From NCBI GenBank assembly GCA_964016885.1, contig OZ024741.1:107198001-107262000 (forward strand): DNA of 64,000 nt, in the 5' to 3' direction. This stretch comes from Eledone cirrhosa (Eukaryota). The position numbers and the translations under genes were made by a program. The stretch's first letter is position 1. The number at the start of each line of letters is the position of its first letter. Of this stretch, positions 35,136 to 41,122 are shown one piece after another. Below the pieces are notes generated by a model. The model saw only the letters and a program-made list of their open reading frames with translations, was not told the DNA's origin and did not search any database.

Positions 35136-35819
35136 TACACACACATGCACACACGCTGGTGCGAACACATACCCACACTCACACAGAGATGATTATTATA
35201 ATCGAGGACCACGATAAATAGAAGTTGAGAAAATCTGATAAATACGTGTAGAGATGTGTAATGTAATGGCGCCTGCGAGGATGGGGCCTCTCTCATCTCC
35301 AAATTATTTAAAATGAGTGTCCCGAACATTTTTTTTTTTTAAAGAGCCCGTAAATTCCATCAAAACTGCTTCATTCTGAGTTGATCCTAATAATCACCAT
35401 ACACTTACCTTTGTATATGTAAGCAATGTATTCTGTTTATTACGATCTATTTGTAACATGTATTAATTAATTATTTCAATTATGACATTAAATTTTAATT
35501 AGTCATATCTTAAATATGCATTGCCTTTCAATGTTTTGTATGGAATTATGAACCAAACATCTGTTACAAATAACAACCTAATTTTTTTCAAATTAATCCC
35601 GACAGTTGCTTTTTTGTAAAGGACCTATTCTGTTGGGATTTTCTATTTATGAAATCAGCTGTAATGTTCAGAGCTGGAATAGCTTTGATGTATCATCTAT
35701 TTAATAAGTGGACGCAAACATGGCTGTATGGTTAAGGATATCGTTGAAAAATCCTGTGGTGCTCGGTTCGGTGTATAAGGTGATATCTTTACCAAATCTC
35801 TCTGCCCTAAACTCGGGTC

Positions 35820-36470
35820 CATCCAAGCCTTCCAGACAGGAAACAGTGTCGATGCCTCTTGGACAGATGTTACATGTCATAGACGTCTCTCCTCCTTCTC
35901 CCCCTGTTGACGTCAAGTCCCTCCAACGCACTTGGGATGCCAACCACTGCAGCCTGGCCTCAGACAGGCTCACGCTCCAGCTCGACCAGCTCCGCCTTGC
36001 TTGTTTTCGTGCGGCCTCCAAACCCCACAGTGGTGTCTGGTTCCATGCGCTGCCCTCCTTCTCCACTGGCACGACAGCCATAGCCTGCGCATCGGGGTTT
36101 CCCTGAGGCTCGGCCTCCAGATCTGCCAGCCACACCAATGTCGCTGCGGTTCCACCGTGGACTCTTTCGGCCTCCACCCGCTTTCCTGTCACCGCAGTGC
36201 CGGCCGAATTCCACACCATGCTGCCCTCAACGAGATCATTAAGCATGGCTTGGACGCTGCAGGCTTCCCTTCCCAGCTAGAGCCGGTGGGGCTAGATCGA
36301 GGGGACGGCAAAAGGTCATATGGCATGATCATCTTCCCGTTCCGCGGTGGAAAACCCCTCGTCTGCGATGCAAATTGCACCGCGAACTGGAGTGGCTTTT
36401 CCAGCGCGTCTCCCTTGCCGTCCTCCGAGGAAACGCCTTCTCCATTTTGTCCGCCGGGGCTGTGGGTGGG
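35820..36470 (+). pseudogene. CRE-clade non-LTR retrotransposon C-terminus (CCHC plus RLE), internally deleted
   Basis: SGVWFHALPS; CRCG..DSFGLHPLSC..GRIPHHAALNEII..LEPVGLDRGDGKR-SY-G (canonically RPDG)..LVCDANC; an alternative frame gives LFQRVSLAVLRGNA. Confidence 0.8.
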
Positions 36471-36641
36471 TCCCATCGCGTACCGTTGTAGTTGTAGAAG
36501 AAACAGGAAGACAACAATTACTTTAAGTGTACACGTGTTTTATTAGTCTGATGTTCAGTTGCTCCATAAACCGATAGATGACTCACCACTCGATTAGGAC
36601 TAACGAAGAACGCCAACAACATTGGAAGCTAGATTTATATG

Positions 36642-37280: not shown

Positions 37281-37794
37281 AAAAATTGCGTTTTTTCAGG
37301 TTTTTATGGGTTTTTCGAGGTGTTACGTCAGACTAATTTCCTTGAAATTGTAACTATGTATTAGTCAGTCTCTTCTTCATACCGTGAGCAGAGAAAATCC
37401 AACTTTTTTTGTATCTCCAATACATTATCTCCAATACATTATTTACCTCTGGTCAAATCCTCAGAATATTCTGAGGATTTGATCAGAGGTAAATAATGTA
37501 ATGGAAATCGAGTGACGCAACTTGGAGCGATTAGCGGCCTCTAGACTCACCTGATCAATGAACCAATTGTTAATACCTGAAATAAAGCCCCTTGTTATAC
37601 AGCCAGCCATGTTACTCTTCATTCTTTCACTATTATTACTCCAAGTATAACCTACATAGGAATTACCGCGAACTCGCTGCCTAAATATGGAAACATCTTG
37701 TTGAGTTAAACAAAGCCGTACGTTAAAACTATCCACGACGCAGAGTACTCACAACCTCTAACTGGATTACCTATAACGATAACTTGTTAACCTA

Positions 37795-37871
<77 letters not shown>

Positions 37872-37915
37872 CAATGATATTAAATAAATGGAAACTATAT
37901 TTATAAAACCATATT

Positions 37916-37980
37916 TATTCTATTATATATATTTCAAGGGTACCAAATAAAACTTTGGTACACTTTCATCAGATAGAATA
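37916..37980 (-). ncRNA. Type-I hammerhead ribozyme (family A)
   Basis: UAUUCUAU-CUGAUGA-AAGuGUACCAAA guuuua UUUGGUACcCUU-GAAA-UAUAUA-UA-AUAGAAUA. Confidence 0.9.
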
Positions 37981-37985
37981 CAAAA

Positions 37986-38233
37986 CTGTAAAATCAAACT
38001 GTCCTTTACAAAATAAGTGTTTAGATAAAAACGTAGTCTATAAATGCACAGTTAAAACTAGTGAAATTATATTTAACTATGTCGGTGCCACTTCTACTGA
38101 ATTTAAACTTCGCTGGATTAACCACAATTGTTCTTTCAGAAGATCTGATAAAAAATCTTCTATTTCCCTCTCAAACCTTATATGGAACTTAAAAAGCAAG
38201 AATATAGACTATTCAATATCTTGGAAACCTTAA
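37986..38233 (+). pseudogene. Second, inverted GIY-YIG fragment
   Basis: SNCPLQNKCLDKNVVYKCTVKT..YVGATSTEFKLRWINH..LSNLIWNLK..YSISW. Confidence 0.85.
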
Positions 38234-39532
38234 CGGTCGGAAAATTCGCTGGATAGTGGAAACTGATTAGGGGTAATTCAAAATTATGTGTGAATATGCA
38301 AATGAATGTATGAAAAATTGAAAAAGACAACCGTTTATTTAAATTACGCTAGTGAAAGATAGGGAAGAAAGACAAGAAAGAGAGAGAGAGGAAAAATAGA
38401 GAGGGAAAAAAATTACTGTTATGAGAGAGATAGAGAGAAGAAAGAAATTTATCAGAGGATGAACTCAAGTAACGTAAATACGTCTTAACTTTTTATTAAT
38501 GTTAGGTATCTTTACTAATTATTGTTAAAATTCTAATATAATACGATATAATATTTATTAATTATAAGTATATAGAAAAAATATAGATATAAAGATATAT
38601 TGAAAAATAAATTGAAAATAAATAGATATACAGTAGAAAATAGTAGAATCAATTATATAGAAAAATATAGATAGAAGAATAGATATATGAGTGGATAAAT
38701 GGGTATATCATGTTATAGATAATTGTTTTAATAAGTTATGAGGGATACTGGTTTATATTTAGTGTAAGTAATAAAATTAACTGAGTTAATAAGATTATTT
38801 ATGTTTTTAATGTTTTAAATTGGGAAGATAGTCAAAATCCCAGTTTTGTTTATTTATTAGCTAGTATGAGACGATTTTGACGAAGATATATATGTTGAAA
38901 GATATATTTAGCCAGAATTAGTTAATTATTGGTTATAACTCTAATATTAAATAATTACAAAATATTAAAAGTATTAAAAAATATTAAAAAATATAAAAAA
39001 ATATAAAAAATATAAAAATATTAAAAGTTCTGGAAAAAAATTCTGGAAAGAAATTTCTGGAAAAAGTTTCTGGAAAAAAGTTTGGAACAAATTTTTTAAA
39101 AGATCCCTTAAAAAAAAAAAAAAATAAAATAAAATAAAATAAAAAAAAAAAATTTTTTTTTTTAAATTTAAAAATCCCAGAAGATAAAAAAAAAAACCTT
39201 TTAAAAAATAAAAATATTTAAAAGGTACTTAAAATATTTAAAATGTTTAAAGATATTTAGAAATATTAAAAAATGTTAAATAATCTTTAAAAAATTAATT
39301 TTTTAAGAAACAATTAATTTTTAAAAGTAAGTAATTTTTTAATATATAAGATATTTTAGAAATAAAATAAAAACTGAGATATTTTAGAAGTAAAATAAAA
39401 AATGAAAGATTTAAACAATAAAAATAAAGATTTAAGAAGTAAAAACCTTAAAATTAGAGTTAAACTTAAAATTTTAAAAAATATAGGCATTGGAATAAAG
39501 TAAGCATTATGTAGAAAAGATTATAAGTGTAA

Positions 39533-40290
39533 TTATATTTTATATATAGTTCTAAACGTTGAGTTTAGGCGATGTTTACAAGAACTAAATAAATTCATAC
39601 GTATATTAATAGAGTTCTTACATTTAAGTATGAAGAAAATGTCCTCAACACACAATTTGCAAAATCTAGATAAAGCTATGTTTTTGTAGGCAGGTGCTTT
39701 GAAATTATATTCCAAGTTAAAGAATAGTCTTTATTTTTAGATTTTAAGTTCCATATGAGGTTTCATAGAGAAGTTGAAGATTTTTTACCAATATTATTAA
39801 ACGAACATTTATGATTATTGAAACGACATTTGAAGTCTGTAGAAGTTGAACCTATATAGTTAAATATATTATCATTTGTTTTGACAATGCATTTATAGAC
39901 ATCTTTATCTAAGCACTTATTTTTTAAAGGAGAGTTAGATATAATTCTACAATTACATTTAGCAGAGTTGATGTTATTCGGAACAGTATTATTATTTTGG
40001 ATATTGCTAGAGGTATTAGTGCTATTTTGCTTATGGTTTAGATTTCTATTATTGATTCTATTTATATTTTGTGCTAAGTTCATAGTAATGGAGTAAGATA
40101 GTTTTATTGTATGTCTGTTAAAGATTGAGTGGTACCTATGGGTTTTGGGAAAACATTTATCTAGAGCTTTAAAAAATAGTTTAGCTAAAGGTGTTTTAAT
40201 ACTTAGTGAAAATGGAGGTACATACCAAATTATATTTCTAGTTCTATATTTAGAGTTTATGTTAGGTATCTTAATGTAATTATAATTAAT
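39533..40290 (-). pseudogene. GIY-YIG endonuclease domain and linker of a PLE
   Basis: VYKC...YIG motif, CxC linker and terminal CxxC/CKH; split across frames. Confidence 0.88.
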
Positions 40291-40500
40291 ATTATGGTTA
40301 TTTGTCTTTTTTTTTTGTCTTTCTTCCCTATCTTTCACTAGCGAAATTTAAATAAACGTCTTTTTCAATTTTTCATACATTCATTTGCATATTCACACAT
40401 AATTTTGAATTACCCCTAATCAGTTTCCACTATCCAGAGAATTTTCCGACCGTTAAGGTTGATTTCCATGGGTATGTCATTATTTATAAAACAAATCTTG

Positions 40501-40564
40501 TATTTTATCTGATGAAAGCGCACCAAGATTGCTTGGTCGCCCTTGAAATATATATAATAAAATA
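40501..40564 (+). ncRNA. Type-I hammerhead ribozyme (family A)
   Basis: UAUUUUAU-CUGAUGA-AAGcgcACCAAG auug CUUGGUcgccCUU-GAAA-UAUAUA-UA-AUAAAAUA; predicted cleavage after 40556. Confidence 0.9.
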
Positions 40565-40853
40565 AATATGGTTTTATAAATATAGTTTCCATTTATTAAT
40601 ATCTTGGAATATTTACTCCAGTAAACAGTTGAGTGCTCTATATCAGTTATAAACATTTATATTTGTCGGAATTCCAACAAATTAAATATAACTTCTACAT
40701 ATATATATATATATATATATATATACGTTATTCCGGGTTGAATCGGAGGTAACCACAGTAAGTAAGGTACTCAATACATAGCAGCGTATAAAAGATTTAA
40801 TATAGATGAGATTCTACAGGACTAGAACTGTTTCATTCTTTAGAAATCATCAG

Positions 40854-40906
40854 GAGATTTCTGATGATTTCTAAAGAATGAAACAGTTCTAGTCCTGTAG
40901 AATCTC
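40854..40906 (+). ncRNA. Type-I hammerhead ribozyme within the fold-back 40801-40913
   Basis: Stem I GAGAUUU/GAAUCUC; CUGAUGA; stem II UUCU aa AGAA; GAA-ACAG uucuaguc CUGU-A; predicted cleavage after 40899. A decayed relative lies at about 21045-21085. Confidence 0.88.
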
Positions 40907-40911
40907 ATCTA

Positions 40912-40976
<65 letters not shown>

Positions 40977-40997: not shown

Positions 40998-41122
40998 ATG
41001 GTTATATGAATGAGTCAGGACCCCGACGACTGAGTTCTTGCCGTTTCAGCAGTTAGTTCCAGACCAGCTGTTGAAACGGCAAGAGTTCAGCTGTCGGGGT
41101 CCTGACTCATACACATAACCAT
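40998..41122. repeat. Fold-back of two HHR 3' halves (related to family H)
   Basis: gagtcaggaccccgac..gccgtttc / gaaacggc..gctgtcggggtcctgactc. Confidence 0.8.

What the first reader, a model, noticed from the sequence alone, without database searches (positions are those of the whole stretch)
37916..40564. Two family A hammerheads show compensatory base changes, and their stem III is itself (UA)n
Seen: stem I is UAUUUUAU/AUAAAAUA at 40501 but UAUUCUAU/AUAGAAUA at 37916, a U-A to C-G swap. Stem II is ACCAAG/CUUGGU versus ACCAAA/UUUGGU, a G-C to A-U swap. The core is invariant. Stem III is GAAA-UAUAUA-UA, as also in family F at 53757. Inference: covariation means the fold was under selection. 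A (UA)4 stem III could serve both as the dimerisation palindrome and as homology to the (TA)n target, linking the ribozyme to site choice.
Basis: partly seen in the sequence, partly recalled or inferred. Interest (0 to 1): 0.75.

Follow-up and report, generated by a model that had tools for sequence, protein, structure and literature searches.

The report
Hydra-clade Penelope hammerheads, not target guides
These are two hammerhead-ribozyme sequences at the ends of broken copies of a very abundant, known kind of jumping gene; their AU-rich palindrome likely lets two ribozymes pair up, and it is not needed for landing in TA repeats, so this is largely ordinary.

Summary
Both hammerhead motifs are there as described. 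They are the 3'-end ribozymes of two truncated copies of a Hydra-clade Penelope-like retrotransposon, with about 5,900 pattern matches in the genome. The quoted stem I swap is not selection. At that pair the genome holds U-A 4326, U-G 1523, C-A 12 and C-G 6 (Fisher p=0.43), so it is a private mutation on a wobble subfamily. The stem II pair closes the loop and is unpaired in 36 of 91 copies. The fold does covary, but between families. The target idea fails. A sister family with stem III UGCGCA (15,686 matches) ends in (TA)n as often (32 of 37 against 79 of 87, p=0.53). Elements end about 50 or 142 nt past the cut, and about 0.4% end at stem III. Of 25 published Hydra families, 24 prefer (TA)n and none has this stem III. 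The palindrome is kept while its letters change, which fits the known dimer model. The scan found this element class before, on other DNA of this genome.

The parts
37793..37868 (.). (TA)n target microsatellite, left flank
37869..37984 (-). inverted, 5'-truncated 3'-end stub of element 1 (U-G stem I subfamily); ends at the proximal terminus, about 52 nt past the cut site
37916..37980 (-). type I hammerhead motif 1; private C at 37976 facing the subfamily G at 37920; palindrome 37932-37925; predicted cut after 37924
37985..38230 (+). fragment of the GIY-YIG endonuclease coding region of element 1; cut off at the junction with element 2
38226..39762 (-). end of the endonuclease region after a premature stop, then the AT-rich 3' UTR of element 2; its own terminal hammerhead is missing at the junction
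   Evidence: full ORFs
39763..40304 (-). 5'-truncated ORF piece of element 2 (RT C-terminal region, linker, GIY-YIG endonuclease)
40305..40698 (+). inverted copy of the 3' end (pseudo-LTR) of element 2, including hammerhead and tail; 99% identical over 103 nt to 38226-38328
40501..40564 (+). type I hammerhead motif 2; palindrome 40548-40555; predicted cut after 40556
40608..40698 (+). 91-nt tail between the two family termini (+51 and +142 nt from the cut site)
   Evidence: loose ends at 40603
40615..40634 (+). first of two small bulged hairpins that lie about 7-9 nt past each terminus (this copy has a mismatch in the upper stem); likely RT start signal
40699..40725 (.). (TA)n target microsatellite, right flank
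53716..53772 (+). family F hammerhead copy with the same stem III but a mutated core; inverted partner just upstream (about 53575-53695)

Best explanation
The two motifs are type I hammerhead sequences in the 3' terminal repeats of two truncated, inverted copies of a Hydra-clade Penelope-like retrotransposon, and their 8-nt stem III palindrome likely serves to pair two hammerheads of a tandem transcript rather than to choose the target. Shown: in longer copies the order is endonuclease > 3' UTR > hammerhead > tail > (TA)n on the coding strand; a tandem hammerhead-ORF-hammerhead unit exists; copies end at two fixed sites about 50 and 142 nt past the cut site. Inferred mechanism: a tandem transcript carries two hammerheads that pair through the palindrome and cut weakly, perhaps with protein help. 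The GIY-YIG endonuclease, probably through its CxCx5C linker, nicks (TA)n. Reverse transcription starts inside RNA that is intact across the cut site, at one of two sites just before a small bulged hairpin. Both target strands are primed, which gives outward-facing ends. Genomic copies then decay neutrally, so selection shows only between master lineages. The two window motifs are on opposite strands, likely from two insertions later joined by a deletion, and could not pair in cis.
For: Sense order and inverted stubs across 80 loci. Full ORFs of 689-821 aa with Hydra motifs, matching the published Hydra alignment by eye. Tandem unit in L182: hammerheads at 4344 and 8181 around an ORF. Termini: a TA run starts 35-62 or 120-155 nt past the cut in 79 of 87 family A and 32 of 37 UGCGCA-family copies (p=0.53); background for a TA run in a 205-nt window is 35%. 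Stem III is self-complementary in 113 of 113 family A, 42 of 42 UGCGCA, 8 of 8 CUAG and 4 of 4 CG copies while its letters change (detector needed UH and stem I, not a palindrome). Stem I pair 4 table: 4326 / 1523 / 12 / 6, p=0.43. In 80 copies anchored on non-ribozyme sequence, every change seen 4 or more times in stem I is a wobble, and N7 accounts for 7 core changes while no other single change occurs more than twice. Two-sided changes between families in stems I and II and A-U to G-C at stem II pair 2 in 5 of 83 rows. Published: 24 of 25 Hydra families with a listed hammerhead prefer (TA)n and none has an AUAUAUAU stem III; in a Poseidon PLE, RT starts internally at two sites without target homology and hammerhead mutants still insert (PMC11167929).
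Against: No cleavage, dimer or RNA evidence was obtained here. The predicted AUAUAUAU duplex is weak (-3.2 kcal/mol against -10.5 for the UGCGCA family). One family of 7 copies has a non-palindromic stem III. Four to five families here share UAUAUA, which shared ancestry would explain, but no tree could be built. About 0.35-0.4% of family A copies end at stem III in (TA)n, 5 to 27 times the rate near the cut site in the UGCGCA family. Family A has A-U, not the usual G-C, at pair 10.1-11.1. Between-family pair counts rest partly on a detector that demanded 4 stem I pairs, and the sampled loci were chosen by searches, not at random.
Confidence: 0.85

Rival explanations
1. One reading: the (UA)4 stem III pairs with the (TA)n target and so determines where the element inserts.
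For: After cutting at AUA the upstream RNA would end in (UA)4, a perfect match to the target (sequence). At least four families here carry UAUAUA and end in (TA)n.
Against: The UGCGCA family is three times as abundant by pattern count (15,686 against 4,906) and as tightly TA-flanked; the CUAG family too (7 of 7). Copies end 50 or 142 nt downstream. 24 of 25 published Hydra families prefer (TA)n without such a stem III.
Confidence: 0.04
2. Weak form: now and then a hammerhead-cut RNA ending in (UA)4 anneals to the nicked (TA)n and primes a short insertion; a minor side route.
For: 24 matches run from stem III into a longer TA run; 16 of 20 inspected do not resume the element directly. The UGCGCA family has only 1-2 such loci at the cut site and 10 within 9 nt.
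Against: A later deletion between stem III and the flanking TA run 50-140 nt away gives the same sequence and needs no ribozyme. 4 of 20 are plain repeat expansions. The two patterns are not strictly matched.
Confidence: 0.15
3. The hammerhead is a passenger that no longer cuts; the structure is kept for another reason, such as protein binding, or simply inherited.
For: PLE hammerheads cut poorly in vitro (PMC4209133); insertion did not need cleavage in PMC11167929; Naiads thrive without them (PMC8557442). Genomic copies span the cut site.
Against: Core conserved except N7, UH kept, and stems rebuilt with pairing kept across families whose proteins are about 51% identical.
Confidence: 0.12

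Closest known systems
Hydra clade of C-terminal EN+ Penelope-like elements (Craig et al. 2021, PMC8557442; seen: outline, passages, section 11, supplement files S1 and S2 tables and alignment passages)
   Same: Single ORF with RT and C-terminal GIY-YIG; RW(K/R), DKT, CxCx5C, CxxC and CxH motifs; hammerhead near the 3' end; (TA)n targets; inverted 5'-truncated copies; tail at one end.
   Different: Stem III is a perfect 8-nt palindrome (2 bp plus 4-nt loop), whereas the listed Hydra hammerheads have 3-4 bp plus a 1-3 nt loop; stem II opens with A-U; 3' UTR about 1.2 kb and tail about 90 nt (30-40 nt is given as typical); not the same family as Hydra-1_Obim; very high copy number.
Minimal and short-helix-III type I hammerheads of metazoan PLEs (Cervera and de la Pena 2014, PMC4209133; seen: parts 1-2 of 4 of the text)
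   Same: [quoted passage not shown]
   Different: 8-bp AU-rich stem I; no G10.1-C11.1 pair and no unpaired base before stem II in family A.
Poseidon element of Anolis carolinensis (Frangieh et al. 2024, PMC11167929; seen: parts 1-2 of 4 of the text)
   Same: Two genomic termini downstream of the hammerhead defining a tail; template intact across the cut site.
   Different: Other clade; there the start sites lie inside the ORF, here in the 5' UTR before it; AT-rich rather than strict (TA)n target.

Membership tests
Type I hammerhead ribozyme | CUGANGA and GAAA core with UH at the cut site | tested here: met
   core intact in 69 of 80 copies anchored outside the ribozyme
Type I hammerhead ribozyme | Three helices, open at helix I | tested here: met
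   stem I 8 bp, stem II 3 plus 5-8 bp; stem III 2 bp, not stable as monomer
Type I hammerhead ribozyme | Match to an Rfam hammerhead model | tested here: not met
   no hammerhead family at E<=10; these searches only show that no curated model covers this variant
Type I hammerhead ribozyme | Self-cleavage at the predicted site | not testable with these tools
   needs an in vitro assay or raw RNA reads
Minimal PLE hammerhead (PMC4209133) | Palindromic positions 15.2-16.2 and loop 3 | tested here: met
   113 of 113 family A copies
Minimal PLE hammerhead (PMC4209133) | Conserved G10.1-C11.1 pair with an unpaired base before stem II | tested here: not met
   A-U in 81 of 83 rows; G-C in family F and the related family
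Hydra-clade PLE | Single ORF, RT plus C-terminal GIY-YIG endonuclease | tested here: met
   ORFs of 689-821 aa in L171-L173 and L177; Pfam gave no family for 3 of 3, so the call rests on motifs
Hydra-clade PLE | RWK-type and DKT motifs | tested here: met
   RW(R/C/T) and DKT in L171, L173, L177 against section 11 and the alignment; compared by eye
Hydra-clade PLE | CxCx5C linker, no CCHH motif, terminal CxxC and CxH | tested here: met
   L171-L177 ORFs; the third Cys is mutated in the window's element 2
Hydra-clade PLE | Hammerhead near the 3' end on the sense strand; insertion into (TA)n | tested here: met
Hydra-clade PLE | Placement in the Hydra clade of an RT tree | not tested
   reference proteins were seen only in a supplement and were not entered into tools
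Non-LTR retrozyme | Head-to-tail tandem monomers, each with a hammerhead, no coding sequence | tested here: not met
   no such array; motifs are inverted and tied to endonuclease sequence

The most novel reading that the evidence does not exclude
A minority of insertions (about 0.4% of family A) are primed directly by the hammerhead-cut RNA, whose (UA)4 end anneals to the nicked (TA)n. These copies would be genomic fossils of in vivo cleavage by a PLE hammerhead, and would show a second, homology-guided priming route beside the main hairpin-marked internal starts.
Probability: 0.15. Interest if true: 0.55.

Novelty: new member of a known kind. Interest (0 to 1): 0.24.

Why it matters
What hammerheads do in Penelope-like elements, and how these elements find microsatellites, are open questions (PMC8557442). 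This genome gives a natural test with thousands of copies: stem III keeps its palindrome but not its letters, while the target stays (TA)n. That separates ribozyme pairing from target choice and supports the existing view that the protein picks the site. It is also a caution: a two-sided change between two transposon copies can be a neutral mutation on a wobble pair. The pair of families (weak AU and strong GC palindromes) is a convenient set for testing dimer cleavage.

Tried and rejected
Rfam: whole window (150 of 263 rows shown, microsatellite look-alikes, none at gathering score) and both motifs alone gave no hammerhead. Pfam: nothing at cut-off for the two window fragments or three full ORFs. 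No RNA holder listed; laying contigs of two runs of one sample showed only high copy number and loose TA ends at 40603, nothing on expression or cleavage. A tree to place the UGCGCA family among UAUAUA families could not be built: 20 stretches fetched upstream of family F and related copies held no ORF of theirs. The whole-structure shuffle result (0 of 500) was not used as proof, since rows are related and were picked by a pairing filter; the inner stem II was left out of that count because the alignment is out of register there, and three C-G copies found by a C-specific search were left out of the 83 rows. Lunse et al. (PMC5785218) is not held; seen only as cited in PMC6765202 (passages). 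The Atlas look-up gave no result. Rejected: retrozyme array; the two motifs as a cis dimer pair (opposite strands); the stem I C-G as a subfamily trait (6 copies, all on the G background at the same rate as C-A). Four paper searches listed no paper proposing stem III as target homology; only listings and the papers named were read. PMC13282606 (passages) has no mention of hammerhead or Hydra; bioRxiv 10.64898/2026.07.22.740005 (part 1 of 5, supplements closed) concerns tandem retrozymes.

Full report
Observation. Both fold better than shuffles (z -2.7, -3.0), with stems I and II formed and stem III open. They face outward on opposite strands. The two copies are about 90% alike over 131 columns, and the sequence downstream of the ribozyme is as invariant as the core, so core identity between them says nothing by itself. 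The family F copy at 53716-53772 has the same stem III but a mutated core; most of its relatives shown have the normal core.

What they belong to. Between the motifs lie GIY-YIG endonuclease coding pieces of two subfamilies, 76% alike. The genome (3.0 Gb, animal-like; organism not determined) holds very many relatives: 59,320 first-look candidates for the protein piece, and 5,867 exact matches over the four stem I variants of the ribozyme pattern. In 80 loci the order, where the parts occur together, is endonuclease > UTR > hammerhead > (TA)n on the coding strand, often with an inverted truncated end in front. Long ORFs of 689-821 aa carry RW(R/C/T), DKT, CxCx5C, CxxC and CxH and lack CCHH. 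These are the features given for the Hydra clade of Penelope-like elements (PMC8557442 section 11), and the proteins match its alignment motif by motif by eye. One locus holds a tandem unit with same-strand hammerheads 3.8 kb apart (L182). The window region is best read as two inverted insertions joined at 38226-38230 with loss of both inner ends (inferred).

Covariation. Stem I pair 4, genome-wide: U-A 4326, U-G 1523, C-A 12 and C-G 6. C occurs in 0.28% of the A background and 0.39% of the G background (Fisher p=0.43). The 'swap' is therefore a subfamily change to a wobble plus a private mutation. The stem II pair is a true two-sided difference between subfamilies, but it closes the loop: G-C 34, A-C 22, A-U 18, U-C 10, other 7 of 91; 36 are unpaired, while the four pairs below it are almost always paired. 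Real support for the fold comes from elsewhere. In 80 of 92 copies anchored on non-ribozyme sequence (12 not alignable), all stem I changes seen 4 or more times are wobbles, and 69 have an intact core with N7 free (part of these loci came from a search with the ribozyme in the query). Stem II pair 2 goes A-U to G-C in 5 of 83 rows. Between families, stem I pairs 1, 2, 4, 5 and stem II pairs 1-3 change on both sides (small samples of 2-42 copies, found with a pairing filter). Such covariation in PLE hammerhead families is already in print (PMC4209133).

Stem III and the target. A sister family (protein 51% identical) has the same stem I core but stem III UGCGCA, with 15,686 matches against 4,906. 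A TA run starts at one of two fixed distances in 79 of 87 family A and 32 of 37 sister copies (p=0.53); with a looser rule 94 of 100 and 38 of 41, against 35% background. A CUAG family is TA-flanked in 7 of 7. In the published tables 26 of 27 Hydra families prefer (TA)n; of the 25 with a listed hammerhead, 24 prefer it and none has AUAUAUAU. Copies end about 50 or 142 nt past the cut site (43 and 132 in the sister family), so the template spanned the cut site. At the proximal end of family A the element continues with AATATT where the target reads TATATA, so homology is not needed there; at the distal end 2-6 letters fit both. What is conserved in stem III is self-complementarity: UAUAUA, UAUGUA (wobble), UGCGCA, CUAG and CG all qualify (113 of 113, 42 of 42, 8 of 8, 4 of 4), with one 7-copy family as exception. 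That is the signature expected of the dimer helix described for PLE hammerheads.

Result against my reading. 24 matches run from stem III into a longer TA run. Of 20 inspected, 4 are repeat expansions and 16 do not resume directly, about 19 of 4,906, or 0.4%. In the sister family 10 loci have a TA run within 9 nt of the cut and 1-2 at it, 5 to 27 times rarer (patterns not strictly matched). This may be rare priming by cut RNA, or deletion between the internal and flanking TA runs; I cannot tell these apart and favour deletion.

Mechanism. Shown: anatomy, termini, target, independence from stem III letters. Inferred: weak dimer cleavage of tandem transcripts; nicking of (TA)n by the endonuclease with its linker, as proposed in PMC8557442; internal RT starts on uncut or re-joined RNA, as shown for another clade in PMC11167929. 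A small bulged hairpin lies about 7-9 nt past each terminus in both families: the first in 45 of 105 and 16 of 42 copies by a strict pattern, the second in the 3 copies that read past the distal end. I had noted the first motif before the look-up; the reading that the pair marks RT starts comes from earlier scan notes on other DNA and is only partly checked here.

Verdict. Real motifs of a known kind in a new family of a known clade. The specific covariation evidence is mostly artefact, the fold is conserved at family level, and the link from stem III to site choice is refuted as a rule, leaving a 0.4% remainder. Interest 0.24.

Noticed in passing
window 40615-40634; L171, L105, L147: Two small bulged hairpins lie about 7-9 nt past the two family termini, in family A and in the UGCGCA family; likely RT start signals. 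Earlier scan notes report the same on other DNA.
   Followed up: partly
window 17043 (-), 34388 (-), 28821 (+): Other hammerhead families in the window with CG and CUAG stem III; their copies end in AC-, ATAC- or TA-type microsatellites about 90-135 nt downstream.
   Followed up: partly
window 48096 (+): Short hammerhead-like core with a non-standard CUGAGG start, a short GC stem and GAAAUAUAUA; seen in the relaxed scan.
   Followed up: no
window 40795-40919 and 40998-41122: Two near-perfect DNA fold-backs (59-60 nt arms, 5-7 nt loops) between TA runs, the first very highly repeated in the genome; probably head-to-head stubs of other elements.
   Followed up: no
window 10683-11501: 41-bp tandem repeat, 20 copies, 99% identical.
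   Followed up: no
window 35701-36546: GC-rich stretch with overlapping open frames, resembling the C-terminal part of a non-LTR retrotransposon (resemblance recalled, not tested).
   Followed up: no
L101, L109, L008, L007: A hammerhead family whose stem III (GAAC, GGAC, GAGC) is not self-complementary, 0 of 7 copies; an exception to the dimer rule.
   Followed up: no
L087 and L088 (G000:C2:226232896-226233403): Two copies facing each other that both end at stem III across one TA-rich field.
   Followed up: no
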